Source of the DNA: Candidatus Magasanikiibacteriota bacterium
GTDB lineage: Bacteria > Patescibacteriota > Patescibacteriia > Magasanikbacterales > UBA922
Assembly (NCBI GenBank): GCA_041674805.1
Contig: JBAYVA010000001.1
Coordinates: 125,136-189,135 of the forward strand
Direction of reading: 5' to 3'
DNA: 64,000 bases
Under the pieces are notes generated by a model. It ran no database searches, was not told the DNA's origin, and was given only the letters and a program-made list of their open reading frames with translations. The stretch's first letter is position 1, and every line of letters starts with the position of its first letter. Of this stretch, positions 1,259 through 16,516 are shown in pieces. A program made the position numbers and the translations under genes.

Positions 1259-1771
1259 GAGGAATGAGGTACGAGGAATGTGGAATGGGGGACCACGAAA
1301 AAATTAGCATTGGAATAAATGATGAAATTAAAATAATTTTTTATATAATATGTCTTTACCAAAATCTTTATTAGATTTGAAATTGGTACAAGAAACAAGA
1401 AAATTTATAGTTATTATTTATAAAGTAACTGACAAGTTACCAGAACATGAAAAATATGGTTTGGTATCACAAATGCGCAGGGCTGTTGTCTCTATATTGG
1501 CAAATATAGTGGAAGGTTATGGTAGAGAAACAAAAAAGGATAAATTACATTTTTATATAATTGCGCGAGGATCATTTAGAGAAATAGAATGTTTCATTTT
1601 GGTTTTGAAAGACTTAGATTATATTTCAGACAAACAATATGAATATTTAGTAAAAGTTAAGGATGTCGTTGGTGGTTTACTAACTAATTTTATAAAATCA
1701 AAATCTTGAGACAATCCATGTTACATTTTATTACACTTTCCTCATTCCCCATTCCTCGTACCTCATTCCTC
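1259..1771. repeat. 32-bp inverted-repeat pair (1259-1290 / 1740-1771) bracketing the four-helix-bundle gene; IVS-like cassette
   Basis: GAGGAATGAGGTACGAGGAATGTGGAATGGGG at 1259-1290 and its reverse complement at 1740-1771 (30/32 identical), read directly from the sequence. Confidence 0.75.
1350..1709 (+). CDS. four-helix-bundle protein, 23S rRNA intervening-sequence (S23/Avd-like) family
   Basis: 119 aa. Motifs SQMRRAVVSILANIVEGYGR...HFYIIARGSFREIECFILVLKDL match the PF05635 / TIGR02436 family. Confidence 0.7.
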   Translation: MSLPKSLLDLKLVQETRKFIVIIYKVTDKLPEHEKYGLVSQMRRAVVSILANIVEGYGRETKKDKLHFYIIARGSFREIECFILVLKDLDYISDKQYEYLVKVKDVVGGLLTNFIKSKS

Positions 1772-1840: not shown

Positions 1841-2548
1841 ATGTGGAGTTTTATTTGGAACGATTTGTTGTATCAACCTGTTTTTAACATTTTGATTTGG
1901 CTCTACAATAATGTAGCCAACCAAAATTTGGGTTGGGCTGTAGTTTATCTTACTATACTTTTGCGTGTTTTGTTGTTGCCTTTGACTATTATAGGTGAAA
2001 GAAATAAGATTAGAGATGAAATGTTGCAAGAACAAATCAAACAAATTGAAAAAGATTTTCGTAATGATGTTGTGGCTCAAAAAGAAGAAATTAGAAAATT
2101 GGTCAAAAAAAATAAAATTAGTCCTTGGGCAAAAGTTTCTTCCCTTGGTATTCAGTTGTTGATGTTGATTTTGTTGTATCAAGTGTTTTTGCAAGGTATT
2201 ACTGGTGAAAAATTGCTTAGAACTTTGTATTACTGGGTAGATTTTCCAGGTAGTATAAATATTAATTTTTTAAGTTTTGATTTGTCTCATACTCATGATA
2301 TATTTTGGCCTGGTATTATAGCTGTTATATTGTTGGTAGAAATTTATTTAGAATTCAAAAAGAACAAAGAAAAATTGAATCAATCAGATTTATTTTATTT
2401 CATTTTATTCCCGGCATTTTCATTTTATATATTATGGATATTGCCAATGGTAAAATCATTATTTATTTTAACCTCAATACTTTTTGGCTTGGCAGTAGGC
2501 CCTATTATAAGAGCGATGTTTAAACCAAAGAAAAAAGATAATAATTAA
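1841..2548 (+). CDS. yidC: membrane protein insertase YidC/Oxa1 family (short form)
   Basis: 235 aa, multi-TM. Conserved YidC core with the amphipathic region KIRDEMLQEQIKQIEKDFRND and a basic C-terminal tail. Confidence 0.7.
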   Translation: MWSFIWNDLLYQPVFNILIWLYNNVANQNLGWAVVYLTILLRVLLLPLTIIGERNKIRDEMLQEQIKQIEKDFRNDVVAQKEEIRKLVKKNKISPWAKVSSLGIQLLMLILLYQVFLQGITGEKLLRTLYYWVDFPGSININFLSFDLSHTHDIFWPGIIAVILLVEIYLEFKKNKEKLNQSDLFYFILFPAFSFYILWILPMVKSLFILTSILFGLAVGPIIRAMFKPKKKDNN

Positions 2549-2558
2549 TATTAATTTT

Positions 2559-3167
2559 ATGGCTGGAGATTCACTAGACAAATTGATGTATTCATTTGTC
2601 ATGGAGGACGTTTTAAAAGGTTTGTTTATAAAAGTACCTCCTGGACATGTAGCTTGTGTTTATGATCTTGGTAGAGGAGTATTGAAAAAAGTTTTGACAC
2701 CAGGTCTTCATTTCAAAATTCCATTTTGGCAAAAAGCAAGATTATTTAATACTCAAACACTTGAGTATGCTATTTCTCGTGATTTTAATCAATTGAATTC
2801 TAGAGCCATGGGTGATGTGCCGATTGGAGCTGTGACTAAAAGTAACAAAAAAATTGCTATTGAAGGTACAGTGTTACTTCGTTTAGATATTCACCAAATT
2901 CCAAATATTTGGCAGACTATTGGTGAAGATTTTGTTGAAAAAATTATCCGTCCAACTATGCGTAGTCGTATGCGTATGGTTATCAGTCGTTTTGATTCTG
3001 AAGAAATCATCGGAGCTAAGCGTGATGCTGTAGAGACTGAACTAAAAAATGAATTAGAAAGAATATTTTATTCTCGTGGTATCTATGTAGAAAATGTTTT
3101 GCTAAGTGAAATTTCTAGTATTGCTGAGATTAGAAATGCTGGTAAGACTGTTGCAGAAGGAGAATAA
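2559..3167 (+). CDS. SPFH/band-7 (prohibitin/HflC-like) domain protein
   Basis: PGLHFKIPFWQKARLFNTQT and a following alpha/beta core typical of the SPFH domain. Confidence 0.6.
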   Translation: MAGDSLDKLMYSFVMEDVLKGLFIKVPPGHVACVYDLGRGVLKKVLTPGLHFKIPFWQKARLFNTQTLEYAISRDFNQLNSRAMGDVPIGAVTKSNKKIAIEGTVLLRLDIHQIPNIWQTIGEDFVEKIIRPTMRSRMRMVISRFDSEEIIGAKRDAVETELKNELERIFYSRGIYVENVLLSEISSIAEIRNAGKTVAEGE

Positions 3168-3198: not shown

Positions 3199-3234
3199 TA
3201 AAACAACCTCAAAAAATGAGGTTGTTTTTTTATT
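3199..3234 (+). terminator. rho-independent terminator
   Basis: AACAACCTC-aaaaaat-GAGGTTGTT followed by a T-run. Confidence 0.6.
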
Positions 3235-3335: not shown

Positions 3336-3405
3336 TTATCACTTGACACCATAGAGTGATAATAGTATAATATCACTGTAGATATAAGAGTGCTAATATT
3401 ATAAT
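3336..3405 (+). promoter_or_regulatory. hrcA promoter (TTGACA 3343-3348, 17-nt spacer, TATAAT 3366-3371) overlapped by two tandem CIRCE-like operators (3336-3362 and 3370-3396)
   Basis: TTATCACTT-N9-GAGTGATAA and ATATCACTG-N9-GAGTGCTAA versus the CIRCE consensus TTAGCACTC-N9-GAGTGCTAA. A second TATAAT lies at 3400-3405, 3 nt before the hrcA ATG. Confidence 0.6.
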
Positions 3406-3407
3406 CT

Positions 3408-4088
3408 ATGTTAGATGAAAGAAAAGCCAAAATTTTGGCTCTAATAATCGAAAAATATACGAAATCAGCTGAACCTATTGGATCCAGTTTTTTGGTTGAT
3501 GAATGTGATTTGGAACTTAGTGGTGCCACTCTTAGAAATGAAATGCGTGACTTGGAAGAATTGGGTTATTTGACTCATCCTCATACTTCATCTGGTCGTA
3601 TTCCGACTGAAATTGGTTACAAATACTATGTGGAAAATATCATGAAGGTAAAGACTATTGCCAAAAAAGTTGCCGAAGATTTCGATAGTGTGTCAGCTGA
3701 AAAAATAAATGATGAACTAAAAACTATTGCCAAAAATATTTCTGAAAAAACTGGCAACTCTGTGATTATTGCTTTTGGTCCTGGTTCACTTTATTACACT
3801 GGTATCAAAAATCTTTTTTCACAGCCTGAGTTTCATGATTATGCTTACATGGTTAGTGTTTCAACAATTTTTGATCAATGTGAAGATATGATTGGTGAGA
3901 TGTACAAAGCGATTGAAAGTGCTGAACCAAAAATTTTGATTGGTGCAGAAAATCCTTTTGGCAGTATGTGTGGACTAGTCGGAGCTAAACTAAAAAACAA
4001 CATTTTGTTTATGGTTTTAGGTCCTGTCCGAATGGATTATTCTACCAATTATACTTTGTTGGATTATTTACTAAAAAAATTTAATTAA
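3408..4088 (+). CDS. hrcA: heat-inducible transcription repressor HrcA (short, 226 aa)
   Basis: N-terminal winged helix: ERKAKILALIIEKYTKSAEPIGSSFL...SGATLRNEMRDLEELGYLTHPHTSSGRIPTEIGYKYYV. CIRCE sites lie upstream. Confidence 0.75.
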   Translation: MLDERKAKILALIIEKYTKSAEPIGSSFLVDECDLELSGATLRNEMRDLEELGYLTHPHTSSGRIPTEIGYKYYVENIMKVKTIAKKVAEDFDSVSAEKINDELKTIAKNISEKTGNSVIIAFGPGSLYYTGIKNLFSQPEFHDYAYMVSVSTIFDQCEDMIGEMYKAIESAEPKILIGAENPFGSMCGLVGAKLKNNILFMVLGPVRMDYSTNYTLLDYLLKKFN

Positions 4089-4096
4089 AAATATTT

Positions 4097-5017
4097 ATGT
4101 CTGAGGAAAATATGCAAGTTATCCCAAGTGTTGGAATGTATATAGAAAACAAAAAAGGTGAATTATTACTTGTAAAATCACACAAATGGGATGATAAATA
4201 TGCTGTACCAGGTGGAAAAATAAAATATGGTGAAACTGCGGTGCAAGCCGTTGAGCGAGAACTATATGAAGAAGTTGGACTGAAAGCAAAAAGTGTAGAG
4301 TTCGTAGATAATATAGACATGATAAAAGATCCAGAATTTATTTATAAACCAGAAGCACATTATGTTTCTCGAAGATTTCAAGTTATAGTTTCTAATACTG
4401 ATGTTGTCTTAAACAATGAAGCTGAAAGTTTTGAATGGGTTGCGCCAGAAGAAATTTTGAAAAGAGATGATGTAGTAACTATTGTCAAAGATTATGTAAA
4501 ACAACACATGCTTTCCAAAGAAAATAAGAAAACAAATAAAAAAGTATTAGAATTAGAAGAAAAAATAGAAGAATACAAATCAGGTTGGCAAAGAGCCCAA
4601 GCTGATTACAAAAATTTGCAAACTGAAATAGAAAATAAAAGAAGTGAATGGGTGAAGATGAGTGAGTTGCAAGTGTTGGAAGATTTTATTCCTGTGTATG
4701 ACAATTTCAAAAAAGCTTTTTCACACCATCCAGAGCTTGATAGCGAAAATGAAAAAGACAAAAAAGTAAAAAATTGGGTAGACGGAATTGGTTATATCAT
4801 GAAACAATTTAGTGATGTATTAAAAAGATTTGAAATAGAAGAAATAAAAACAGTAGGGGAGATGTTCAATCCAGAATTTCATGAAGCAGTCGGTGAAGAA
4901 GATTCAGAAGAAATAGAAGGTAAAATTTTGAGAGAAATAGATGTTGGTTATACTATGAAAGGAAAAGTGATAAAAGTCGCGAAAGTAATAATTTCCAAAA
5001 ATTCCAATAACAAATAA
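4097..5017 (+). CDS. grpE: NUDIX hydrolase domain fused to GrpE nucleotide-exchange factor
   Basis: Residues 1-140 carry a Nudix box (GGKIKYGETAVQAVERELYEEVGL). Residues 150-306 are GrpE (coiled coil LELEEKIEEYKSGWQRAQADYKNLQ, then GEMFNPEFHEAVG...KGKVIKVAKV). Single continuous ORF. Confidence 0.7.
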   Translation: MSEENMQVIPSVGMYIENKKGELLLVKSHKWDDKYAVPGGKIKYGETAVQAVERELYEEVGLKAKSVEFVDNIDMIKDPEFIYKPEAHYVSRRFQVIVSNTDVVLNNEAESFEWVAPEEILKRDDVVTIVKDYVKQHMLSKENKKTNKKVLELEEKIEEYKSGWQRAQADYKNLQTEIENKRSEWVKMSELQVLEDFIPVYDNFKKAFSHHPELDSENEKDKKVKNWVDGIGYIMKQFSDVLKRFEIEEIKTVGEMFNPEFHEAVGEEDSEEIEGKILREIDVGYTMKGKVIKVAKVIISKNSNNK

Positions 5018-5086
5018 ACAAATTCCAAACAATACACAAATAACAATTTGGAATTTGTAATTTATTAATTTGTAATTTTAAAGCAT

Positions 5087-5518
5087 ATGTTACCAAGACT
5101 ATGGGATCCATTCGATGATATGGATAATATGGTAAGAAATTTTCCTGCTCTTACCAACAACAATGATTTCAATCGTAAAGGCTTCGTGCCAGCCGTCGAC
5201 GTCTATGAGACAAAAGACGCTGTCGTAGTCGAGACCTTACTTCCTGGTGTCAATCCAGAGCAAGTAGAAGTCAGTGTAGAAAAAGGAGTTTTGACTATTC
5301 AAGGTGAAAGTCAAAGAGAACATGAAATTGATGAAAAAAATTATTATCGCAAAGAAGTGCGTGGTGGATCATTTTTCCGCCAAGTATCTTTGCCAGTTTC
5401 GGTCAAAGAAAATGAAGTAAGTGCTGAATTTGAAGATGGCATACTCAAAATTACTTGTCCAAAAGCTGAGGAAAAGAAAATGAATAAGGTGGATGTGAAG
5501 GTGATTAAAAAACAATAA
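5087..5518 (+). CDS. Hsp20/alpha-crystallin small heat-shock protein
   Basis: ACD motifs: PAVDVYETKDAVVVETLLPGVNPEQVEVSVEKGVLTIQGE...AEFEDGILKITCPK. Confidence 0.85.
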   Translation: MLPRLWDPFDDMDNMVRNFPALTNNNDFNRKGFVPAVDVYETKDAVVVETLLPGVNPEQVEVSVEKGVLTIQGESQREHEIDEKNYYRKEVRGGSFFRQVSLPVSVKENEVSAEFEDGILKITCPKAEEKKMNKVDVKVIKKQ

Positions 5519-5522
5519 TTCT

Positions 5523-5948
5523 ATGATAAATAGATTTGATCCAATATGGGAAGGTCATCAAAAAGATACTAATACTATAAATAAGTATTTACTTATTACA
5601 AGTAGATTATATACTATTGCCATTGTTGTTACTTCATTCTTTGTTAGAATTTTTCTTACTAATTTCAAATCAAGTGAGATAATGTCTGGTATTTTATTAG
5701 TTTCTTTCATGATTACTTCTGCGCTCCTTGTATATAATTTTTCACTTTATAGAGAATTAGCAAGTGTTTTAGTTATTGAAAAGTTAAGAAAAATAATGTT
5801 TTTCATTTGGTTGATTATTTTTTTTCTTTTTAACATATTCCAAATTATTACTTTGTTTGTGAATTATGGATGGTGGATGGTAGTGTTAAATATCATATGG
5901 GGTATAGTTGGTGATTTATTAATAAATAAAGTTATAAAAAAGAATTAG
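5523..5948 (+). CDS. hypothetical membrane protein (4 TM)
   Basis: Hydrophobic segments; starts 5 nt after the hsp20 stop. Confidence 0.4.
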   Translation: MINRFDPIWEGHQKDTNTINKYLLITSRLYTIAIVVTSFFVRIFLTNFKSSEIMSGILLVSFMITSALLVYNFSLYRELASVLVIEKLRKIMFFIWLIIFFLFNIFQIITLFVNYGWWMVVLNIIWGIVGDLLINKVIKKN

Positions 5949-5958
5949 TATTTATTAA

Positions 5959-6004
5959 CTGGCAGTGGTGAACTGAACATTCTAAACTGCCAAGACTTTT
6001 TTCT
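5959..6004 (+). terminator. putative terminator hairpin
   Basis: Imperfect CTGGCAG...CTGCCAAG stem followed by a T-run. Confidence 0.35.
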
Positions 6005-6083
6005 ACATAATAAATATCTTATAATAGTTTGATATGTGGTACGCGTTGTGTGATATGTGAATTAACTAATTAATTTAATAAAT

Positions 6084-6893
6084 ATGGAAAGACGAAATCC
6101 AGAGCATTCATTTTCTACAGGTGCAAAAAAAGTAGAAGAAAAAGAGAAAAAAAAGAGTTTACGAGAACGTCTCATTAATAAATGGACTTTGCTTTTTACG
6201 GCACTAACTGTATTTGCAGGTCATGAAATTTCTTCTGCCGAAAAAAACAAATATAATGATGATTTTGCTGAAAGATTACCTCAAGATCCTGAGTCTTTAG
6301 CAGAAATTGATAAAGCTCTTGATATTGTAGAAGAAGCTATACAAGAAAGAACACAAAGACAAAAAAATAAAGATGTTGAAGAAGAACAACTAGAAAAGCT
6401 TGCGCGTGGTATCCAACGTGAACATGGTTGGAAAGGAGACCAAGAAAAAGCTTTAGTTGATTTAACTGATATTCCTAAAAAGGAAGAATTACCATCGAAT
6501 CAAATGTTCAAAGAAGATTATCAAGCCATTTTTGATGCTCTTCCTAATAAAAATTTTAATCTTGCACCTATAGAGCTTGGATATTTGAATTATCTTATTA
6601 CCAACTCTCAGGATGATTTTGAAGCTGAACTAGATTTTGAGCATGAAGTTGTAAAACCAGAAGAAGATGACAAGGATACTTCTGAATATGTTGTAAGTAA
6701 TTACAAATTAACTGTTGGATTAGAAGGAAAAACACAAGAATTTGTTGCAGGTACATTACAGGAGGTTGCAAAATTAGTTTCTTATACACATGATTTACAT
6801 AGTTTATGGAAATTTTATGAAAGTGGTGTATTAACTGAAGAACAATATCAAAATGATAAAAAGGAATTACAAACTAAACATGGTTTTAATTAA
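6084..6893 (+). CDS. hypothetical protein, acidic, single N-terminal TM; possible SHOCT-like C-terminus
   Basis: ORF only. The C-terminus LWKFYESGVLTEEQYQNDKKELQ resembles the short C-terminal (SHOCT) motif. Confidence 0.4.
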   Translation: MERRNPEHSFSTGAKKVEEKEKKKSLRERLINKWTLLFTALTVFAGHEISSAEKNKYNDDFAERLPQDPESLAEIDKALDIVEEAIQERTQRQKNKDVEEEQLEKLARGIQREHGWKGDQEKALVDLTDIPKKEELPSNQMFKEDYQAIFDALPNKNFNLAPIELGYLNYLITNSQDDFEAELDFEHEVVKPEEDDKDTSEYVVSNYKLTVGLEGKTQEFVAGTLQEVAKLVSYTHDLHSLWKFYESGVLTEEQYQNDKKELQTKHGFN

Positions 6894-6988: not shown

Positions 6989-8926
6989 ATGTCAAAAATA
7001 TTAGGAATCGATCTAGGAACAACTAACTCATGTATGGCTATCATCGAAGGTGGTCAGCCAAAAGTGTTAGAAAACAAAGAAGGAAATCGTACTACTCCAT
7101 CTGTCGTGGCTATTTCCAAAACAGGTGAACGTCTTGTTGGGCAATTGGCTAAGCGTCAAGCTGTAACCAATCCTGGCAATACTTTGAATTCAATCAAGCG
7201 TCTTATTGGTCGCAGATTTGAAGACAAAGAAGTAAAAGATATTATAGAACATTCACCATATACTATTATCAAAGATGGCGAAAAATTGAAAATAAAAATG
7301 GGGGACAAAGAATATACACCTCCAGAAATTTCAGCCATGATTTTGCAAAAATTAAAAGCTGATGCCGAAGAAAAATTGGGAGAAAAAATTACAGAAGCTG
7401 TTATTACAGTTCCTGCATATTTCGATGATTCACAAAGACAGGCTACTATTGCTGCTGGTGAAATCGCAGGATTGAAAGTTGCTCGTATTATCAATGAACC
7501 AACTGCCGCTGCTTTTGCTTATGGCTTCGACAAAAAAGGTGACCAAAAAATAATGGTTTACGATTTGGGTGGTGGTACTTTCGATGTTTCAGTTTTGGAT
7601 ATCTCTCATGATGGCGAACAATCTACAGTAGAAGTTTTATCAACCAATGGTGATACACATCTTGGTGGTGACGACTTTGACAAAAAAGTTATTGAATGGA
7701 TTCTAGAAGAATTCAAAAAAACAGAAGGTATTGATTTGGCAAAAGATCCACTTTCACTGCAACGTGTCAAAGATGCTGCTGAAAAAGTAAAAATTGAACT
7801 TTCAAGTACTGTCGACGCTGAAATCAACGAACCATTTATTACTTCAGGTGCTGAAGGTCCAAAACATTTGAACTTGAAACTTAGTCGTGCTAAGTTGGAA
7901 GAGTTGGTAAATGATTTGGTAGAAAAAACTATGGGTCCAGTTAGAAAAGCTTTGGAAGATGCCAAAATGCAAAAAACTGAAATCAATGAAATCGTGCTAG
8001 TCGGTGGTATGACTCGTATGCCTCTTGTACAACAAAGTGTAGAAAAGTTTTTTGGTAAAAAACCAAACATTAGTGTCAATCCAGATGAAGTCGTCGCTGT
8101 TGGTGCTGCTATCCAAGCTGGACAATTGCAAGGTGACTTGGGCAAAGAAATTTTGCTTCTTGATGTCACTCCACTTTCATTAGGACTCGAAACTCTAGGT
8201 GGTGTATCTACCAAACTTATTGATAGAAATACAACTATTCCAACTAGTAAAACTCAAGTTTTCTCTACTGCTGCTGACAATCAGCCAAGTGTAGAAATTC
8301 ATGTTTTGCAAGGTGAACGTCAAATGGCAGTTGATAACAAAGCTCTTGGTAGATTTATGCTTGATGGTATTCCACCAGCTCCACGTGGCGTGCCACAAAT
8401 CGAAGTAAAATTTGATATTGATGCTAACGGTGTATTACAAGTATCTGCTAAAGACAAAGGAACTGGTAAAGAACAATCAATTCGTATCGAAGCTTCTTCT
8501 GGTTTATCTGATGAAGAAATAGAAAAAATGAAAAAAGATGCTGAAGCTCACGCTGACGAAGACAAGAAAAAACGTGAAATGATTGATATCAAAAATACAG
8601 CTGACACTATGATTTATACTACCGAAAAAATGATGAAAGATGTAGAAGAAAAGAAAATCGAAGTGACAGATGAAGAAAAACAAAAAGTAAATGATGCTTT
8701 GACAAAAATGAAAGAAGTCAAAGAAAAAGATGATATTGAAGAAATCAAAAAAGTTTCTGAAGAATTATCTACAGCTGCACAAGCTATTGGTATGAAGATG
8801 TATCAACAAGAACAAGCTCAACAGCAAGCAGGTAACAGTGAACAAAAAACAGGTGAACAACCAGCTGATGAAAAAAAGAATGAAGGTGAGTCTGTAGAGG
8901 GGGAAGTGGTTGATGGGGACAAATAG
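6989..8926 (+). CDS. dnaK: molecular chaperone DnaK (Hsp70)
   Basis: 645 aa. [26 protein letters not shown] and a full substrate-binding domain. Confidence 0.97.
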
Positions 8927-8968
8927 TAAGCAGAATAGGCAGAATAAGTAAATTAAGTAGACGAAATT

Positions 8969-9006
8969 GCCCTGTCCAAATTCGGACGGGGCAAATGGTT
9001 TGTTTA
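8969..9006 (+). terminator. terminator hairpin after dnaK
   Basis: GCCCTGTCC-aaattc-GGACGGGGC followed by a T-rich tail. Confidence 0.5.
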
Positions 9007-9065
9007 ATTGAAGACATTGTAGTAAAATGTATATGTTTAGAAATTTTTAATTTTAATATTTTTAT

Positions 9066-9674
9066 ATGAACGGAATGGAATCGTCTTTTTTGAAAGTTAT
9101 ACCAGAGGGAAAATTGGATGATGTGACTTTTGATGATTTAAAAGGTGTTTTGATGAAAGGTTGTGAAGATTTTTTTGAAAAATATTTTGCAGAAAAATTT
9201 TTTGGTAATAATAAAAAAACATCATCTCAATATTTAGATATTATTTCTGAACAAATTCACAATAGTGAAGAAAGTGTTCCAGAAGATTTGGACAAAAATT
9301 TTTATTTAGAAATAAAAAAAGTAATGAAAAAAGTTTTTTCTATTTTTAATATAGAAAATTTGCAAGAATTAGATAAAAATTTATTAGCTATTGAATCACA
9401 TATAAGTGAAACATTAAAAATTCAAGAATTTATTTTTACTTTGTTGTCGTATGTTGAAAAAGAATCAGAAGAAGTTAGAGAATTTGTGAGAGAACTGAGA
9501 GCTGAGATTGAAAGAGATGGTATTGGTGATATGGCAGGAATGTTAGAAGGTTTGGAGGACGTTTTTGGCTCTAAAGGTGAAAAAAAAGATGGAGAAGGTG
9601 AGGTAATAAAACTTTCAGAAAGAAGAAAACCAACTAATCCAGAAACAAATCCAAATGGTAATGGTAGAAAATAA
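9066..9674 (+). CDS. hypothetical acidic protein
   Basis: ORF in the dnaK-dnaJ interval; no recognisable motif. Confidence 0.4.
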   Translation: MNGMESSFLKVIPEGKLDDVTFDDLKGVLMKGCEDFFEKYFAEKFFGNNKKTSSQYLDIISEQIHNSEESVPEDLDKNFYLEIKKVMKKVFSIFNIENLQELDKNLLAIESHISETLKIQEFIFTLLSYVEKESEEVREFVRELRAEIERDGIGDMAGMLEGLEDVFGSKGEKKDGEGEVIKLSERRKPTNPETNPNGNGRK

Positions 9675-9694
9675 TTTATTTTTATAATAAAAAT

Positions 9695-9997
9695 ATGAAC
9701 AACCCACAACCACAAAACGAAAACAAAGGAATACAAATAAAAGTAACTGATGAAGTCTTGGCTGGTAAATATTCCAACATGGCGCAAATCTCTCACAATA
9801 GAGAAGAATTTGTGCTTGATTTCATGACAATACTGCCACCTGCTGGCACTCTAAATTCTCGTATTATCATGAGTCCAGGACATTACAAAAGAATGATCAA
9901 AGCTATGCAAGAAAATTTGCGTAGATATGAAGAAAGTTTTGGTGAAGTAAAAGAATCAAGTGAGCCTGAGACTATTCATGGGTTTCCTGTTAAGTAA
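9695..9997 (+). CDS. DUF3467-like protein
   Basis: The block YSNMAQISHNREEFVLDFMTILPP resembles the DUF3467 family. Confidence 0.45.
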   Translation: MNNPQPQNENKGIQIKVTDEVLAGKYSNMAQISHNREEFVLDFMTILPPAGTLNSRIIMSPGHYKRMIKAMQENLRRYEESFGEVKESSEPETIHGFPVK

Positions 9998-10005
9998 ATT
10001 TTAAT

Positions 10006-10611
10006 ATGAAGTCTACAACAGTGTTGTGTGCTTTTTGTGGAAAAAATCTTTCAAAAGAAGATCCTATAATTGTATTAAAAAAAAGTAAAAGAAATAATTA
10101 TTTAGCAAAATATAATTCTGTTTTAGAATTAAAAAAATATGTTTTCTTTCATAAAAATTGTTATTCTTCTAATTTAAAAGTAACAAAAAGAGTTAGTACA
10201 ACAAATGCTATAGACTCTGTTTCTGATTTTTTATTATTATTTATTTTTTTGGTAAGTTTAACTAGCCAGGCTATTTTCATAGCAATTTTACCTATGCAAG
10301 ATATGGTAATGAGAATTAGAGATTGGTTTACTTTAATATTATTTTTATTTTCAATAGGATTTATTTATTTTTTATTTTTTAGAGCTGTTTACATTTTATA
10401 TCTTGTTTACAAATATGATTTATTTATCAAAACTAAATTTTTGTGGGTAATATTTTCAAGTTTTATATTAGGAATGGTTTTGTATTTTGCAACAGTCGTA
10501 ATAAATATAAAATCTTTAGTATTAAATTCTGTTATAGGAAGTTTGGGGATTGCTTTTATTTGTTTAAGTATAGTTTGGGGTCATTTATCCTCATTTAAAA
10601 TAAAAGAATAA
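10006..10611 (+). CDS. membrane protein with N-terminal Cys-X2-Cys zinc-ribbon-like motif
   Basis: CAFCGKN...HKNC, then 4 predicted TM segments. Confidence 0.45.
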   Translation: MKSTTVLCAFCGKNLSKEDPIIVLKKSKRNNYLAKYNSVLELKKYVFFHKNCYSSNLKVTKRVSTTNAIDSVSDFLLLFIFLVSLTSQAIFIAILPMQDMVMRIRDWFTLILFLFSIGFIYFLFFRAVYILYLVYKYDLFIKTKFLWVIFSSFILGMVLYFATVVINIKSLVLNSVIGSLGIAFICLSIVWGHLSSFKIKE

Positions 10612-10623
10612 ATATAAAATATT

Positions 10624-11616
10624 ATGTCAATTGATAGTAAAGATATTTTAGAAACTGAAGCCGTCGCCGATTTTCAGTTTAAAAGAATACTTGAAAAAGG
10701 AGTTGTGATTGCCACCTCATCAAAATATAGAGAGGCAATTTTTAGAGATATTGGTTTTAAAGATTCTATTGGTATTCCAGTTGAACAGGTTGATGAAATG
10801 GGTATAAAAAAAGAGTATGAAGAAAAAAATCCTGTAGCTAACGAAGAAGATCCTTATAGAACTAAGATGGTAGAATCTGTAGCAAGAGGAAAAGTTGCTG
10901 AGTTAATGTCACAACTTAAGGAACATCCAGATTACAAAGATAAAGTATTAGTAGGATTAGATACAATGCCTATTTATTTTGGTTTTGATTTTGATGAAAA
11001 TGGTGGTATGTCTTACAGAGGTGACGCTATACCAAAACCTACACCACAAGAAAAATATAGTGAAAATTATGATCCAGAAAATGGTCATGTAGAATTAATG
11101 GCAGAAGAAATGATGGAAGATGAATTGACTTATTTAGTTGAGATGATAAGAAAAAAATTGGATGAAAAATATAAAGAAAAATTGAAATATAATGGAAATA
11201 CCATACATCGTTCAGTTGGAATTCAAGTAACAACAGGGTTAGCTATACATGTGCCAGGTGATTCTGAAGAAATTAGAACATTTTCTATTAGTAGTTTTCT
11301 TGAATTTATTAAATTAAAAGAAATAGCTAAGATTGAAGGTAGCGAAAAACGTAATATTGAAATAAAAAAATTAGTAAAGGAAATTGTTTCTCAATATGAT
11401 GATGAAAATTTAAAAAATAAAATAAGTGGTGGTATAAATTTTGGGGATGAAAGAATGAAAAAAATATTAGATGCAAAAGAAGTAAAATTGAATAATAGAG
11501 GAGATGTTGTGCATGATATGAATCTAGAAGTTGAATCAGGTATTTATCTTGGTGCACCTGAAAATGCTATAAAACAAGCTTTACAATATATTGCCAGACA
11601 AATGGTTACTAAATAA
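10624..11616 (+). CDS. Maf-like (nucleoside triphosphate pyrophosphatase) protein, divergent with insertions
   Basis: VVIATSSKYREAIFRDIGF, VLVGLDTMPIYF and SVGIQVTTGLAIHV align with Maf motifs (LILASGSPRR.ELL..LG; VLGADT; TGVAL). At 330 aa it is longer than canonical Maf (~190 aa). Confidence 0.4.
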   Translation: MSIDSKDILETEAVADFQFKRILEKGVVIATSSKYREAIFRDIGFKDSIGIPVEQVDEMGIKKEYEEKNPVANEEDPYRTKMVESVARGKVAELMSQLKEHPDYKDKVLVGLDTMPIYFGFDFDENGGMSYRGDAIPKPTPQEKYSENYDPENGHVELMAEEMMEDELTYLVEMIRKKLDEKYKEKLKYNGNTIHRSVGIQVTTGLAIHVPGDSEEIRTFSISSFLEFIKLKEIAKIEGSEKRNIEIKKLVKEIVSQYDDENLKNKISGGINFGDERMKKILDAKEVKLNNRGDVVHDMNLEVESGIYLGAPENAIKQALQYIARQMVTK

Positions 11617-11624
11617 AATAAACT

Positions 11625-12716
11625 ATGTCCAAAGACTATTACAAAATTCTTGGTGTTGATAAAAGCGCTAGCAAAGACGAAATCAAAAAATCTTTTCGTA
11701 AGCTAGCTCACGAACATCACCCGGATAAAAAAACTGGAAACGAAGAAAAATTCAAAGAAATAAATGAAGCTTTTCAAATCTTAGGTGATGACACCAAACG
11801 TGCACAATACGATCAATATGGTTCTGATTTTGAACAACAGGGCGGTTTTGGTGGTGGTATGAATTGGAACGACTTCATGAACTCTACTCGTGGTCAAGGT
11901 GGTGGTTTTGGTGGAGCAGGATTCAACGGGATTGATTTGGGTGATATCTTTGGTGACATCTTTGGTGGCGGTAGAAGTAGTAGAAGAGAAGCCAAAGGAC
12001 AAGATATTCAAGTCACAGTGGAACTCACTTTTCGTGAAGCTATTTTTGGTGTAGAAAAAGAAGTAAGATTGACCAAGAATAATCCTTGTAAAACTTGTGA
12101 AGGCTCAGGAGCCGAGCCAGGAGCTGGTACAGAGACTTGTAGTGACTGTCGTGGTCAAGGACAAGTAAAACGTGTCCAACAGACCATTTTGGGGGCTATG
12201 CAGACTGTCGCGACTTGTCCCAAGTGTCAGGGTGCTGGCAAAATACCAAAACAAGCTTGTAAACATTGTAATGGACGTGGTATGGAGCGTAGTGAATCGA
12301 AATATAACGTCAAGATTCCCGCTGGTATTGCCGACGGTGAGATGATCAGACTAACTGGTAAAGGTGAATCTGGTGGCATTGGCGCTCATCCAGGCGACCT
12401 TTATATTCGTGTTCATGCGAAAAAAGAAAATGGTTTTGAAAGACAAGATTTTGATATTTTTACCGAAATTACTATTTCTTATCCGCAAGCAGTACTTGGC
12501 GACAAAGTAGAAATAGATACTCTAGAGGGTAAGAAAAAATTAGTCATTCCCGAAGGCACCACTTCTGGACAAAAATTCAAATTAAAAGCACTTGGTGTAC
12601 CGAGATTGCAACGTAGTGGACGAGGGGATCAGTATGTGACAGTGATTATTGATGTGCCAAAAAAAGTTGATCGTAAGACAAAGAAACTTCTTGAAGATTT
12701 GAGGGAAATGTTATAG
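11625..12716 (+). CDS. dnaJ: molecular chaperone DnaJ
   Basis: J domain (DYYKILGVDKSASKDEIKKSFRKLAHEHHPD), G/F-rich region, four CxxCxGxG zinc-finger repeats. Confidence 0.93.
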   Translation: MSKDYYKILGVDKSASKDEIKKSFRKLAHEHHPDKKTGNEEKFKEINEAFQILGDDTKRAQYDQYGSDFEQQGGFGGGMNWNDFMNSTRGQGGGFGGAGFNGIDLGDIFGDIFGGGRSSRREAKGQDIQVTVELTFREAIFGVEKEVRLTKNNPCKTCEGSGAEPGAGTETCSDCRGQGQVKRVQQTILGAMQTVATCPKCQGAGKIPKQACKHCNGRGMERSESKYNVKIPAGIADGEMIRLTGKGESGGIGAHPGDLYIRVHAKKENGFERQDFDIFTEITISYPQAVLGDKVEIDTLEGKKKLVIPEGTTSGQKFKLKALGVPRLQRSGRGDQYVTVIIDVPKKVDRKTKKLLEDLREML

Positions 12717-16090: not shown

Positions 16091-16516
16091 TTATTTGTTA
16101 TTTAAATTTATTGCAATTTTTAAAGCATTACGTGCATCATCATGGCTTAATTTATTAATTGCGTCTTTAACAGGAAACCAATTACCATCTATGAATCCTT
16201 CAGAACTGTTTGGAACAATTGTTTGTTGTTTTTTTGTTAAGAAACAATGAACTCTGATTACCTTGAGAGCTTTTTCACCATCAAAATAAAATGAAAATTC
16301 TGTAACAAAGCCAAGGTGTTCATCATTTGAAATAATAACCTTAGTTTCTTCTTCGACTTCACGAATAGCAGTTTGAACTTCATTTTCACCTTTTTCAACA
16401 TGACCTTTTGGTAATACCCATTCGTTTTCATTATTTTGAAGCAAAAGAACATCCATTTCATCATGTGAATGTTTTTTATAAAAAACTATGCCCATTGCTG
16501 ATGTTTTTTTCTTCAT
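16091..16516 (-). CDS. NUDIX hydrolase
   Basis: Nudix box LPKGHVEKGENEVQTAIREVEEETKV. Confidence 0.75.
   Translation of the reverse strand: MKKKTSAMGIVFYKKHSHDEMDVLLLQNNENEWVLPKGHVEKGENEVQTAIREVEEETKVIISNDEHLGFVTEFSFYFDGEKALKVIRVHCFLTKKQQTIVPNSSEGFIDGNWFPVKDAINKLSHDDARNALKIAINLNNK

What the first reader, a model, noticed from the sequence alone, without database searches (positions are those of the whole stretch)
4097..5017. NUDIX hydrolase domain fused in-frame to GrpE inside an hrcA-controlled operon
Seen in sequence: a single 306-aa ORF has a canonical Nudix box (GGKIKYGETAVQAVERELYEEVGL) in its first ~140 residues. A complete GrpE lies in the remainder: the coiled-coil tail, then GEMFNPEFHEAVG...KGKVIKVAKV.

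Established knowledge: GrpE is normally ~180-200 aa with a disordered N-terminus. A catalytic Nudix domain there would place a nucleotide or dinucleotide hydrolase, or an ADP-ribose/Ap4A sensor, directly on the DnaK nucleotide-exchange factor.

A second stand-alone NUDIX gene lies at 16091-16516.
Basis: partly seen in the sequence, partly recalled or inferred. Interest (0 to 1): 0.55.

Follow-up and report, generated by a model that had tools for sequence, protein, structure and literature searches.

The report
NUDIX enzyme cassette on chaperone cofactor GrpE
In this ultra-small groundwater bacterium, the GrpE helper protein of the DnaK heat-shock chaperone carries an intact NUDIX nucleotide-cleaving enzyme in place of its usual floppy N-terminal tail; this is a real, widespread but undescribed design that related strains gain and lose as a cassette.

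Summary
Window 4097-5017 (+) is one 306-aa ORF with a canonical NUDIX domain (residues ~6-138) and a complete GrpE (139-301). It is not a frameshift or assembly artefact. At least 110 protein clusters and 35 of 80 species-representative genomes carry the same fusion, in MAGs labelled Magasanikbacteria and Falkowbacteria, always in an hrcA-grpE-(hsp20)-dnaK operon. An independent single-run assembly is identical.

The catalytic NUDIX residues are conserved in about 143 of 145 fusions. dN/dS is 0.07-0.10, as low as for GrpE. The operon has a perfect sigma-70 promoter overlapped by two CIRCE-like operators, conserved in 71 of 80 related loci.

New findings:
- The NUDIX replaces the disordered N-tail, which lies at the client-binding end of DnaK, about 100 A from the nucleotide cleft.
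- It behaves as a clean 414-nt in-frame cassette. The closest relatives have plain GrpE.
- The window acquired its copy on a ~600-nt recombination tract.

The fold is a minimal MutT-like NUDIX; the substrate is unknown. The most likely role is a heat-shock-co-regulated, GrpE-tethered nucleotide or alarmone pyrophosphohydrolase. I found no description in the literature. This is a new variant of a known kind, of moderate interest.

The parts
3200..3228 (+). Terminator-like hairpin that ends the upstream Band_7/SPFH unit and marks the 5' limit of the chaperone operon
   Evidence: 12-bp stem followed by a T run
3336..3362 (+). CIRCE-like operator 1 (TTATCACTT-N9-GAGTGATAA)
   Evidence: 3 mismatches to CIRCE, 0.01 matches expected by chance.: a homologous site is conserved upstream of hrcA in related loci
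3343..3371 (+). Sigma-70 promoter TTGACA-17-TATAAT (12 of 12 matches), overlapped by both operators
3370..3396 (+). CIRCE-like operator 2 (ATATCACTG-N9-GAGTGCTAA)
3408..4088 (+). hrcA, a short form of 226 aa encoding the heat-shock repressor
   Evidence: PF01628; TIGR00331 E 3e-47 but below its cutoff.: the same short length is seen in all related loci
4097..5017 (+). NUDIX-GrpE fusion ORF of 306 aa; an alternative in-frame start lies at 4112
4112..4519 (+). NUDIX cassette (residues 6 to ~141), absent as a clean in-frame block from the closest relatives L001-L004 and L007
   Evidence: AF2 pLDDT is about 95. dN/dS is 0.07-0.10
4214..4282 (+). NUDIX box G40-L62 (GKIKYGETAVQAVERELYEEVGL), an exact match to GX5EX7REUXEEXGU
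   Evidence: Read directly from the sequence.: G40, E46, R54 and E58 are invariant, and E55 and E59 are at least 90% conserved, in 59 fusions.
4106..4112 (+). 5' copy of the 7-nt direct repeat GAAAATA flanking the cassette
   Evidence: copies at 4106 and 4520, 414 nt apart (138 codons), in frame
4520..4526 (+). 3' copy of the direct repeat GAAAATA. The window's private 30-nt deletion of the linker segment follows immediately
4020..4620 (+). Recombination tract of about 600 nt. Here the window is 92-99% identical to the fused allele L085 and only 80-91% to L001, while the flanks are 96-100% identical to L001
4511..4999 (+). GrpE domain (residues 139-301): stalk helix 142-209, helix 219-244, beta-domain 247-301
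   Evidence: 4ANI 5e-16, 1DKG 9e-10. (GrpEL1 match)
5087..5518 (+). hsp20 (small heat-shock protein), same operon
   Evidence: conserved position
5523..6893 (+). Two uncharacterised ORFs between hsp20 and dnaK (5523-5948, predicted membrane protein; 6084-6893). They are absent from L002-L004
   Evidence: no Pfam match
6989..8926 (+). dnaK (645 aa), the partner Hsp70
8967..8994 (+). Terminator-like hairpin after dnaK (11 pairs, 7 GC)
11625..12716 (+). dnaJ (363 aa), downstream in the same direction
16091..16516 (-). Second, stand-alone NUDIX gene (141 aa). It is unrelated in subfamily, with 27% identity to the fused domain

Best explanation
SHOWN:
- The gene encodes one polypeptide in which a minimal, catalytically intact MutT-like NUDIX pyrophosphohydrolase (residues ~6-138) is joined by a ~3-residue hinge to the first residue of the GrpE stalk helix (residue 142, equivalent to E. 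coli GrpE residue ~40).
- The NUDIX therefore replaces the disordered N-terminal tail of an otherwise ordinary GrpE.
- The gene is transcribed with hrcA, hsp20 and dnaK from a sigma-70 promoter overlapped by two CIRCE-like operators.
- The architecture is old and widespread in MAGs of two Patescibacteria candidate phyla.
- The NUDIX half is under purifying selection as strong as the GrpE half.
- The NUDIX is a portable 414-nt in-frame cassette. Close relatives lack it, and the window's lineage received it on a ~600-nt homologous-recombination tract from a fused allele.

INFERRED:
- GrpE is a parallel homodimer, so the protein would display two NUDIX domains side by side at the distal end of the coiled-coil stalk.
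- That end lies next to the DnaK substrate-binding domain and about 100 A from the nucleotide cleft engaged by the beta-domain.
- Nucleotide exchange should proceed as in any GrpE.
- The NUDIX most likely works as an autonomous Mg2+-dependent pyrophosphohydrolase. GrpE supplies heat-shock (HrcA/CIRCE) co-regulation, 1:1 stoichiometry, dimerisation and localisation at the DnaK machine.
- Its probable job is to remove a stress-generated nucleoside-polyphosphate species. Candidates are a dinucleoside polyphosphate alarmone such as Ap4A, or a damaged or non-canonical (d)NTP. The substrate is not determined.
- The cassette is an accessory. GrpE works without it in sister strains, and it works with a DnaK that evolved alongside a NUDIX-less GrpE.
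For: Reality and recurrence:
- One ORF with both Pfam domains.
- At least 110 clusters at 90% identity have both domains at 40-86% identity.
- 35 of 80 species-representative loci carry the fusion, all in hrcA-grpE-(hsp20)-dnaK context.
- An independent Logan assembly is identical over window 3725-5149.

Catalytic competence:
- The NUDIX box matches the consensus exactly.
- G40, E46, R54 and E58 are invariant, and E55 and E59 at least 90% conserved, in 59 fusions.
- About 143 of 145 fusions keep the catalytic glutamates.
- dN/dS is 0.07-0.10 for NUDIX against 0.07-0.15 for GrpE.

Fold:
- AF2 mean pLDDT is 85.8, and about 95 for the NUDIX domain.
- Foldseek TM-scores (target-normalised) of 0.78-0.82 to M. 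mazei MutT 3GRN and NudI 6DT3/3OGA. The GrpE half hits GrpEL1.
- The GrpE half aligns end to end with 4ANI and 1DKG, with window residue 152 at E. coli residue 50.

Regulation:
- Promoter plus two CIRCE-like sites.
- Operators conserved in 71 of 80 loci, against 1 background hit in 351 kb.

Cassette behaviour:
- Clean in-frame presence or absence, with both flanks homologous.
- GrpE-only forms are interleaved with fusions inside one subclade of the GrpE tree.
- dS window-L085 is 0.25 for NUDIX, against 0.73 for GrpE and 0.65 for hrcA. dS window-L001 is 0.11-0.33.
- Sliding-window identity switches at about 4020 and about 4620.

Functional link to the operon:
- In L041 an intact stand-alone copy (152 bits to the fused-domain HMM) sits between hrcA and a fusion whose own box is degraded.

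Candidate substrate class:
- The best relatives are small stand-alone NUDIX proteins and HAD-NUDIX-FolB, NUDIX-FolB or PTPS-NUDIX proteins.
- Ap4A crosslinks to DnaK, GroEL and ClpB and is degraded by NUDIX enzymes (PMC10148737).
Against: - No substrate assignment is possible. All NCBIfam NUDIX equivalogs score far below their cutoffs (mutT 41.7 against 97.9). PDB sequence hits are weak and mixed: RppH, NUDT15, GDPMH, DIPP and NudI at E about 1e-6. Foldseek E-values are flat across subfamilies.
- The FolB/PTPS/HAD-linked relatives suggest a dihydroneopterin-triphosphate-type substrate, which has no obvious link to chaperones.
- Repeated loss in sister lineages shows the cassette is dispensable, so its benefit may be small or conditional.
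- Pure co-expression would not require a physical fusion. The persistence of a catalytically degraded fused copy in L041, and the fact that the cassette occupies the pseudo-substrate tail position, hint at a structural or regulatory role that this explanation does not cover.
- The dimer geometry and the ~100 A separation are inferred from helix length and homologous structures, not from a model of this complex.
Confidence: 0.6

Rival explanations
1. The NUDIX domain is a nucleotide-gated regulator of the DnaK cycle. It sits where the pseudo-substrate N-tail normally is. It would bind, and slowly hydrolyse, a stress nucleotide such as Ap4A, and in doing so change how GrpE's N-terminal end engages the DnaK substrate-binding domain. 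Client release would then be coupled to alarmone or nucleotide status.
For: - The cassette exactly replaces the disordered tail, which promotes substrate release by binding the DnaK SBD.
- The hinge is only about 3 residues in the model, so the domain is held close to the SBD-contacting part of the stalk.
- The window allele has also lost the 10-residue linker segment.
- L041 keeps a fused copy with a degraded catalytic box next to an intact stand-alone copy. This suggests a non-catalytic role for the fused domain.
- Ap4A is reported to bind DnaK.
Against: - The catalytic residues are almost universally conserved, as expected for an enzyme rather than a pure sensor.
- The cassette was recently recombined into a backbone whose neighbouring genes are nearly identical to those of a NUDIX-less strain. 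No co-adapted DnaK seems to be required.
- The cassette has been lost repeatedly.
- There is no direct evidence of a NUDIX-DnaK contact.
Confidence: 0.2
2. The NUDIX acts on RNA 5' ends or protein-linked nucleotides rather than free nucleotides. It could be RppH-like, removing 5'-triphosphate or Np4 caps, or it could process ADP-ribosyl groups. GrpE/DnaK would recruit it to stress-affected clients.
For: - The best PDB sequence hit is RppH (5YGU, E 9e-7).
- RppH structures are among the Foldseek matches, including RppH bound to Ap4A and RppH in complex with DapF.
- The domain is positioned at the client-binding end of the DnaK-GrpE complex.
Against: - RppH NCBIfam models score far below their cutoffs (37 bits against 139-241).
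- The match covers mainly the generic NUDIX box.
- The TM-scores to RppH (0.60-0.65, target-normalised) are lower than to MutT or NudI (0.78-0.82).
Confidence: 0.1
3. The NUDIX hydrolyses the adenine nucleotide handled by DnaK, either released ADP or incoming ATP. This would directly bias nucleotide exchange.
For: - The domain is physically attached to the nucleotide-exchange factor.
- The NUDIX family acts on nucleoside diphosphate derivatives.
Against: - The domain is at the opposite end of a ~68-residue helix (about 100 A) from the beta-domain that opens the DnaK cleft.
- Small molecules diffuse freely over that distance.
- ATP or ADP hydrolysis next to an ATP-driven chaperone would be wasteful.
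- No adenine-specific signature was found.
Confidence: 0.05
4. The fusion is an artefact or a decaying passenger: a sequencing or assembly frameshift or strain chimera, or a non-functional remnant.
For: - The window comes from a metagenome-assembled contig.
- The gene is a mosaic of two allele types, which bubble-popping assemblers can create.
Against: - An identical sequence appears in an independent single-run assembly spanning both breakpoints.
- Hundreds of diverged homologues share the same architecture.
- dN/dS is 0.07-0.10 and the catalytic motif is intact.
- Identity to L085 in the tract is 92-99%, not 100%, so the tract is not a co-assembled contaminant of that strain.
Confidence: 0.02

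Closest known systems
Canonical bacterial GrpE (E. coli 1DKG, Geobacillus kaustophilus 4ANI, M. tuberculosis DnaK-GrpE cryo-EM)
   Same: - Residues 139-301 match PF01025 and align end to end with the solved GrpEs.
- The predicted layout is a stalk helix, a short helical region and a beta-domain.
- The genomic context is hrcA-grpE-dnaK, and this is the only grpE in the operon.
   Different: - The 40-50-residue disordered N-tail that reviews describe as part of the conserved GrpE architecture (PMC12987570) is replaced by a folded 133-residue enzyme domain.
- The hinge is only about 3 residues.
- NCBIfam GrpE equivalog cutoffs are not reached (89 bits against 137). This is not unexpected for such a divergent lineage.
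Minimal MutT-like NUDIX hydrolases (M. mazei MutT 3GRN, NudI/YfaO 6DT3 and 3OGA, E. coli MutT 3A6S, NUDT15)
   Same: - A single-domain alpha/beta/alpha NUDIX fold of about 130 residues.
- An exact NUDIX box.
- Foldseek target-normalised TM-scores of 0.78-0.82.
   Different: - Only 23-27% identity.
- No subfamily model reaches its cutoff.
- The domain is covalently attached to a dimeric coiled coil.
- The C-terminal helix carries a signature (PEEILKRDDV) specific to GrpE-fused NUDIX domains.
HAD-NUDIX-FolB, NUDIX-FolB and PTPS-NUDIX multidomain proteins (P0125, P0135, P0140, P0137)
   Same: - They are among the closest sequence relatives of the window's NUDIX core, at 40-47% identity.
- They show that this NUDIX type is readily used as a fusion module.
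   Different: - The partner domains are pterin/folate-pathway enzymes. That points to a dihydroneopterin-triphosphate pyrophosphatase role, which is my inference from the architecture.
- No such partner is present here.
- The GrpE-type C-terminal helix signature is absent from them.
NUDIX-type Ap4A hydrolases and the Ap4A-chaperone link
   Same: - The enzyme superfamily is the same.
- The connection to heat shock is shared: Ap4A accumulates in stress and crosslinks to DnaK, GroEL and ClpB (PMC10148737).
- Ndx1 (Ap6A hydrolase) and the Aquifex Ap4A hydrolase are among the fold matches.
   Different: - No diagnostic sequence feature of ApnA hydrolases was found.
- Similarity to them is no better than to other NUDIX subfamilies.
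- This is a candidate substrate only.

Membership tests
GrpE (Hsp70 nucleotide-exchange factor) | Match to the family profile PF01025 above the curated threshold | tested here: met
   127.7 bits against a cutoff of 25.8, residues 139-301, covering profile positions 9-165 of 165
GrpE (Hsp70 nucleotide-exchange factor) | NCBIfam GrpE equivalog cutoff reached | tested here: not met
   the best model, NF010738, scores 89.1 bits against a cutoff of 137. The lineage is highly divergent. This weakens only the automatic 'equivalog' label
GrpE (Hsp70 nucleotide-exchange factor) | Stalk helix, helical bundle and C-terminal beta-domain, alignable with solved GrpEs | tested here: met
   helix 142-209, helix 219-244, beta-domain 247-301.: 4ANI 5e-16, 1DKG 9e-10, 3A6M.: GrpEL1 9BLS
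GrpE (Hsp70 nucleotide-exchange factor) | Disordered N-terminal tail of 40-50 residues | tested here: not met
   the tail position is occupied by a folded NUDIX domain (pLDDT about 95), with a ~3-residue hinge before the stalk
GrpE (Hsp70 nucleotide-exchange factor) | Encoded with dnaK/dnaJ as the operon's only grpE | tested here: met
   hrcA-grpE-hsp20-...-dnaK-...-dnaJ; the same context in all 84 related loci
GrpE (Hsp70 nucleotide-exchange factor) | Homodimerisation and acceleration of ADP release from DnaK | not testable with these tools
   Requires biochemistry
NUDIX hydrolase superfamily | PF00293 match and the 23-residue NUDIX box GX5EX7REUXEEXGU | tested here: met
   79.4 bits against a cutoff of 21.1. 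G40-L62 matches every specified position when read from the sequence
NUDIX hydrolase superfamily | Alpha/beta/alpha sandwich fold | tested here: met
   Foldseek probability 1.00, target-normalised TM-score 0.78-0.82 to MutT and NudI structures
NUDIX hydrolase superfamily | Catalytic residues maintained by selection | tested here: met
   box residues invariant or at least 90% conserved; about 143 of 145 fusions intact; dN/dS 0.07-0.10
NUDIX hydrolase superfamily | Assignment to a substrate-defined subfamily (MutT, RppH, GDPMH, ADPRase, NudC, ApnA hydrolase) | tested here: not met
   all subfamily models are far below their cutoffs.: hits are flat across subfamilies. The SQPWPFPxS (NADH) and NuCoA motifs are absent by inspection
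NUDIX hydrolase superfamily | Metal-dependent pyrophosphohydrolase activity | not testable with these tools
   Requires enzymology
HrcA/CIRCE heat-shock regulon | CIRCE inverted repeat (TTAGCACTC-N9-GAGTGCTAA) at the promoter | tested here: met
   two sites with 3 mismatches each, 0.01 expected by chance.: they overlap a 12-of-12 sigma-70 promoter.: the lineage variant TTATCACTC-N9-GAGTG(A/C)TAA is present in 71 of 80 loci, against 1 hit in 351 kb of background
HrcA/CIRCE heat-shock regulon | A cognate HrcA repressor is encoded | tested here: inconclusive
   PF01628 is met (45 bits against 22.2), but TIGR00331 scores 161.7 against a cutoff of 197.2. The protein is 226 aa against a 338-position profile. 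The short form is conserved in all related loci
HrcA/CIRCE heat-shock regulon | Heat-inducible transcription | not testable with these tools
   Requires expression data

The most novel reading that the evidence does not exclude
The NUDIX cassette converts GrpE's pseudo-substrate tail into a ligand-responsive, enzymatically self-resetting switch. Binding and hydrolysis of a stress nucleotide such as Ap4A at the stalk tip would control how the GrpE dimer engages the DnaK substrate-binding domain. Client release by an Hsp70 would then be gated by an alarmone. The cassette would spread between strains by recombination as an adaptive regulatory add-on.
Probability: 0.15. Interest if true: 0.85.

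Novelty: new variant of a known kind. Interest (0 to 1): 0.58.

Why it matters
**Departure from the described architecture.** A recent review describes GrpE as having one conserved architecture across kingdoms: a disordered N-terminus, a stalk, a helical bundle and a beta wing (PMC12987570). The role of the N-tail in client release is an active question (PMC12915176, PMC10803776). Here a whole lineage has replaced that tail with an active-looking enzyme. Sister strains with and without the cassette differ by little else in the operon.

**A natural experiment.** Comparing the fused and unfused alleles with their cognate DnaK would test two things directly: whether the N-terminal region matters for client release, and whether a nucleotide or alarmone hydrolase is functionally coupled to the Hsp70 cycle. 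That would also address the old, unresolved report that Ap4A binds DnaK.

**Domain evolution.** The locus is a clean example of a protein domain behaving as a recombining presence/absence cassette in uncultivated, genome-reduced bacteria.

**If there is no coupling.** If the fusion only provides co-expression, it is an ordinary Rosetta-stone fusion of modest interest.

Tried and rejected
1. **Frameshift or adjacent-gene artefact: rejected.** See the recurrence data and the independent assembly.

2. **Split-gene evidence from L035: rejected.** L035 has a NUDIX ORF between dnaK and dnaJ, but it scores only 26 bits against the fused-domain HMM, so it is a generic NUDIX.

3. **The second NUDIX gene (16091-16516) as a paralogue of the fused domain: rejected.** It is 27% identical over 85 residues.

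4. **The CxxC linker motif (FFxKKCKxCE) as part of the NUDIX module: rejected.** 22 NUDIX-less GrpEs also have it, and the window clade lacks it.

5. **Single or multiple origin of the fused NUDIX domains: unresolved.**
   - The NJ tree is star-like.
   - Reciprocal HMM scores for the window clade are intermediate: 133 bits against the fused set and 141 against the non-fused set.
   - The core-similarity comparison is biased, because the non-fused set was selected as best hits to this query.
   - Only the C-terminal helix clearly carries the fused-family signature (p = 2e-13).
   - A single origin therefore remains most parsimonious, but partial core replacement is not excluded.

6. **Substrate assignment: no discrimination.** I tried NCBIfam, PDB sequence search and Foldseek.

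7. **Word-indexed search with the NUDIX domain alone:** it returned only 3 hits. The exhaustive HMMER search was needed.

8. **The GC-rich 30-nt linker segment as a dispersed repeat: rejected.** It occurs only in grpE tails.

9. **Maf-like annotation of ORF 10624-11616: left as a weak note.** The Pfam hit is below threshold (E 1.7e-4) and has no support from solved structures.

10. **AlphaFold DB fold search:** the library was unavailable.

11. **Literature searches** for a NUDIX-GrpE fusion, or for GrpE with extra domains, found nothing relevant.
Full report
**1. The observation**

Window 4097-5017 (+) is a single 306-aa ORF. Pfam finds a NUDIX domain at residues 10-124 (E 3e-22) and a GrpE domain at residues 139-301 (E 5e-37, covering profile positions 9-165 of 165). 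Residues G40-L62 (GKIKYGETAVQAVERELYEEVGL) match the NUDIX box GX5EX7REUXEEXGU at every specified position.

The neighbouring genes are as follows:

| Coordinates | Gene or feature |
|---|---|
| 2559-3167 | Band_7/SPFH |
| 3408-4088 | hrcA (short form, 226 aa) |
| 4097-5017 | NUDIX-GrpE fusion |
| 5087-5518 | hsp20 |
| 5523-5948 and 6084-6893 | two uncharacterised ORFs |
| 6989-8926 | dnaK |
| 8927-11624 | four further ORFs |
| 11625-12716 | dnaJ |

It is on the minus strand and only 27% identical to the fused domain.

**2. The operon is plausibly HrcA-controlled**

- A terminator-like hairpin (3200-3228) closes the upstream unit.
- A 12-of-12 sigma-70 promoter (TTGACA-17-TATAAT, 3343-3371) is overlapped by two CIRCE-like inverted repeats (3336-3362 and 3370-3396).
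- These are the only two such sites in the 64 kb window, against 0.01 expected by chance.
- The next strong terminator follows dnaK (8967-8994).
- A lineage variant of the operator, TTATCACTC-N9-GAGTG(A/C)TAA, lies upstream of hrcA in 71 of 80 related loci. The background is 1 hit in 351 kb.

**3. The fusion is real and widespread**

- The large protein database returns 481 homologues.
- Of the best 120 clusters, 110 are 265-330 aa long and carry both Pfam domains, at 40-86% identity. Their sources name them Candidatus Magasanikbacteria, Parcubacteria or Patescibacteria.
- In one-genome-per-species contigs, 35 of the 80 retained loci encode the fusion. They include MAGs titled Magasanikbacteria and Falkowbacteria (31-35% identity). 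NCBI treats Falkowiibacteriota as its own candidate phylum within the Parcubacteria group.
- Every locus has the hrcA-grpE-(hsp20)-dnaK core.
- A Logan assembly of a single run (SRR6484325) is identical to window 3725-5149.
- No relative shows a stop codon or frameshift at the junction.

**4. Both halves look functional**

- In an alignment of 59 fusions, G40, E46, R54 and E58 are invariant. G39, E55 and E59 are at least 90% conserved.
- Across about 145 fusions, only two have substitutions at catalytic glutamates.
- Among close relatives, dN/dS is 0.07-0.10 for the NUDIX half and 0.07-0.15 for the GrpE half.
- The AlphaFold2 model has mean pLDDT 85.8. It shows:
  - a compact NUDIX sandwich (pLDDT about 95);
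  - a short low-confidence hinge (143-145);
  - a 68-residue helix (142-209);
  - a second helix (219-244);
  - a beta-domain (247-301).
- Foldseek matches the N-half to minimal MutT-like enzymes (3GRN, 6DT3, 3OGA, 3A6S; target-normalised TM-score 0.78-0.82). It matches the C-half to GrpEL1.
- The GrpE half aligns end to end with 4ANI (5e-16) and E. coli 1DKG (9e-10). Window residue ~152 aligns with E. coli residue 50. The predicted stalk start at 142 therefore corresponds to E. coli residue ~40.
- The NUDIX thus occupies the entire position of the disordered N-tail.

**5. Where the NUDIX sits in the machine**

- In the M. tuberculosis DnaK-GrpE structure, the beta-domain of one GrpE opens the nucleotide cleft. 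[quoted passage not shown] Deleting the disordered N-tail blocks substrate release (PMC10803776).
- NMR work on E. coli indicates that the tails bind the DnaK substrate site through the motif 17-IIM-19 (PMC12915176).
- A 2025 review cautions that this interaction has not been seen directly in a structure. It describes the disordered N-terminus as part of the conserved GrpE architecture and mentions no fused domains (PMC12987570).
- A 68-residue helix spans roughly 100 A. This is my inference from 1.5 A per residue. The NUDIX domains would therefore lie at the client/SBD end, far from the nucleotide cleft.
- This argues against direct processing of DnaK's own ADP or ATP.

**6. The NUDIX is a cassette**

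- The closest syntenic relatives encode plain 171-191-aa GrpEs. These are L001 (GCA_028687045), L002-L004 and L007. They share the gene order MacB/FtsX x2, YidC, Band_7, HrcA, GrpE, Hsp20, DnaK.
- DNA alignments show that the hrcA stop, the 8-nt spacer, the ATG and the MSEE codons are shared. The window then has the NUDIX block where relatives have 30-45 nt of tail. Homology resumes in the linker.
- Both flanks are homologous between fused and unfused alleles: MSEE... upstream, and ...(D/N)KS(A/S)..QGG(L/P)TFGRK.NKK downstream.
- A 7-nt direct repeat, GAAAATA, lies at 4106 and 4520. The copies are 414 nt (138 codons) apart, so recombination between them would excise the cassette in frame. In such A-rich sequence this repeat could be chance.
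- In a GrpE-domain NJ tree, all GrpE-only proteins fall in one subclade nested within the fusion-bearing radiation. There they are interleaved with fusions. This fits an ancient fusion with repeated later changes in this subclade.

**7. Recent recombination brought the cassette into the window lineage**

Synonymous divergence (dS) between the window and its relatives:

| Region | vs L001 (no NUDIX) | vs L085 (fused) | vs L086 (fused) |
|---|---|---|---|
| hrcA | 0.20 | 0.65 | 0.71 |
| NUDIX half | absent | 0.25 | 0.94 |
| GrpE half | 0.33 | 0.73 | 0.80 |
| hsp20 | 0.11 | not available | 0.70 |

- Sliding-window identity shows the window is 96-100% identical to L001 over 3390-3930 and over 4620-4930.
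- Over about 4020-4620 it is 92-99% identical to L085 and only 80-91% identical to L001.
- The simplest reading is that an L001-like hrcA-grpE-hsp20 backbone received a ~600-nt tract from an L085-like fused allele by homologous recombination. That tract contained the NUDIX cassette plus about 90 nt of homology on each side.
- Gene conversion of a pre-existing cassette is not excluded.
- The cassette's GC content (32.4%) matches the window's (32.1%).
- The window allele also carries a private 30-nt in-frame deletion in the linker. It removes a GC-rich segment (SSQGGLTFGR) that is present in L085, L086 and L001, with a diverged copy in L007.

**8. What kind of NUDIX**

- An exhaustive HMMER search with the domain alone finds 2609 representatives at E <= 1e-3. 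None is closer than about 47% identity.
- Of the best 150, 11 are GrpE fusions, 87 are stand-alone proteins of about 140 aa, and 52 have other architectures.
- All 10 multidomain hits I scanned carry the NUDIX domain. Their architectures are:
  - HAD-NUDIX-FolB (P0125, P0135);
  - HAD-NUDIX (P0144, P0147, P0164, P0177);
  - NUDIX-FolB (P0140);
  - PTPS-NUDIX (P0137);
  - NUDIX with no other recognised domain (P0126, P0130).
- The FolB- and PTPS-linked architectures suggest dihydroneopterin-triphosphate or NTP-type pyrophosphatases. That is my inference.
- NCBIfam subfamily models all fall far below their cutoffs. PDB sequence hits are weak and heterogeneous.
- The domain is best described as a minimal MutT-like NUDIX of unknown substrate.
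- Its C-terminal helix (PEEILKRDDV...) carries a signature shared with other GrpE-fused domains but not with stand-alone relatives (p = 2e-13).
- Whether the core shares that ancestry is unresolved.

**9. Extra evidence for a functional tie to the operon**

In L041, hrcA is followed by an intact stand-alone NUDIX. It scores 152 bits against the fused-domain HMM and has the box REVKEETNL. A NUDIX-GrpE fusion follows, whose own box is degraded to RKIKDEIGI. The catalytic activity has stayed in the operon, and the fused copy has been kept without intact catalytic residues. This hints that the fused domain may also have a non-catalytic role. It is a single locus on a 6.4-kb contig.

**10. Interpretation**

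*Shown:*
- a genuine, ancient, selectively maintained NUDIX-GrpE architecture under a CIRCE-type promoter;
- the NUDIX replaces the N-tail;
- the NUDIX behaves as a recombining accessory cassette.

*Inferred, most likely:*
- The NUDIX is an autonomous pyrophosphohydrolase that uses GrpE for heat-shock co-regulation, stoichiometry, dimeric display and localisation at DnaK.
- It removes a stress-related nucleoside polyphosphate. Ap4A is an attractive candidate because it is reported to crosslink to DnaK, GroEL and ClpB and is a NUDIX substrate (PMC10148737).
- Portability into a backbone that evolved with a NUDIX-less GrpE favours autonomy.

*Main rival:* the domain replaces the pseudo-substrate tail in function and gates client release in response to a nucleotide.

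**11. Novelty**

- Source annotations call these proteins simply 'nucleotide exchange factor GrpE'.
- Full-text searches found no description of a NUDIX-GrpE fusion or of any GrpE with an enzymatic N-terminal domain.
- Both domains are ordinary members of known families. The new elements are the architecture, its position at the tail, and its cassette dynamics. I therefore rate it a new variant of a known kind.
- The held library covers only open-access papers, and the AlphaFold DB library was unavailable. An earlier mention elsewhere cannot be excluded.

Noticed in passing
L005-L084 and P0006-P0120 (for example L016 3863-4438 and L017 2175-2789); absent at window 4520-4560: Most Magasanikbacteria GrpE proteins, fused or not (68 fusions and 22 GrpE-only), carry a conserved motif just before the coiled coil: F(F/G)xKKCKxCE, which contains a CxxC. 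In a parallel GrpE dimer, two CxxC motifs could form a 4-Cys metal or redox site. The window clade lacks the motif.
   Followed up: partly
L041 1071-2371: This locus has a tandem arrangement: an intact stand-alone NUDIX (145 aa, box REVKEETNL), followed immediately by a NUDIX-GrpE fusion whose box is degraded to RKIKDEIGI. Both ORFs start MSE(D/G)K, which suggests duplication of the 5' part of the gene.
   Followed up: partly
L051 3755-4789, L063 3767-4798, L067 3746-4786, L073 3797-4825: The fusion ORFs of one subgroup of the Falkowbacteria-type loci are open for about 70 extra N-terminal codons, directly after hrcA. In two of them (L067, L073) the extension shows a faint, non-significant resemblance (E 73-130) to the C-terminal part of a NUDIX domain. 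It could be a degenerate second NUDIX or a start-codon overcall.
   Followed up: no
window 3408-4088 and hrcA in all loci L001-L084: In nearly all of the related loci with a complete hrcA ORF, HrcA is a short form of about 222-252 aa, against a 338-position TIGR00331 profile. The window protein matches the profile in two stretches and falls below the equivalog cutoff. This looks like a lineage-specific truncated repressor.
   Followed up: no
window 4527 (deletion point); L085 3417-3446; L001 ~5036-5066; L007 ~4060-4090: A GC-rich 30-nt segment (for example TCCGCCCAAGGCGGACCAACCTTCGGTCGG, with small hairpin potential) sits in the otherwise AT-rich grpE tail of several close relatives. It is precisely deleted in the window. 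It is not found elsewhere in the window or the loci.
   Followed up: partly
window 10624-11616: The 330-aa ORF immediately upstream of dnaJ has a weak Maf-like match (nucleotide pyrophosphatase; E 1.7e-4, below the Pfam cutoff). Solved structures give no support. If real, it would be a second nucleotide house-cleaning enzyme in the chaperone cluster.
   Followed up: partly
window 5523-6893 and 9066-10611: Several uncharacterised ORFs are inserted within the chaperone cluster. Two lie between hsp20 and dnaK. Between dnaK and dnaJ there are an unknown 202-aa ORF, a DUF3467 protein and a membrane protein. They are absent from L002-L004, where hsp20 abuts dnaK.
   Followed up: no
window 1350-1709; L001 2248-2607: A 23S rRNA-intervening-sequence / bAvd-like four-helix-bundle gene lies between the FtsX-family gene and yidC in the window and in L001, but not in L002-L004. 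bAvd-like proteins can accompany diversity-generating retroelements. I did not look for a reverse transcriptase.
   Followed up: no
L002 8419-8784 and L003 8437-8802: An IS200-type Y1 transposase gene sits between dnaK and dnaJ in two of three near-identical contigs and is not called in the third (L004). This is another sign of local mobility in this operon.
   Followed up: no
L005, L006, L015, L017, L018, L025, L027-L031 and others: Many TPA_asm MAG records titled 'uncultured Gammaproteobacteria bacterium' carry the Magasanikbacteria-type synteny (yidC-band7-hrcA-grpE) and proteins 45-68% identical to the window's. The organism label in those records is almost certainly wrong.
   Followed up: partly
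window 1841-3167 compared with 3408-5518, against L001: Divergence from L001 is very uneven along the contig. dS is 0.97 for yidC and 0.68 for band7, but 0.11-0.33 for hrcA, grpE and hsp20. The whole chaperone block, not only the NUDIX tract, appears to have been exchanged recently between lineages.
   Followed up: partly
L035 6632-7072: A generic stand-alone NUDIX gene lies between dnaK and dnaJ in a Magasanikbacteria genome with unfused GrpE. It scores only 26 bits against the fused-domain HMM and is not an orthologue of the cassette.
   Followed up: yes
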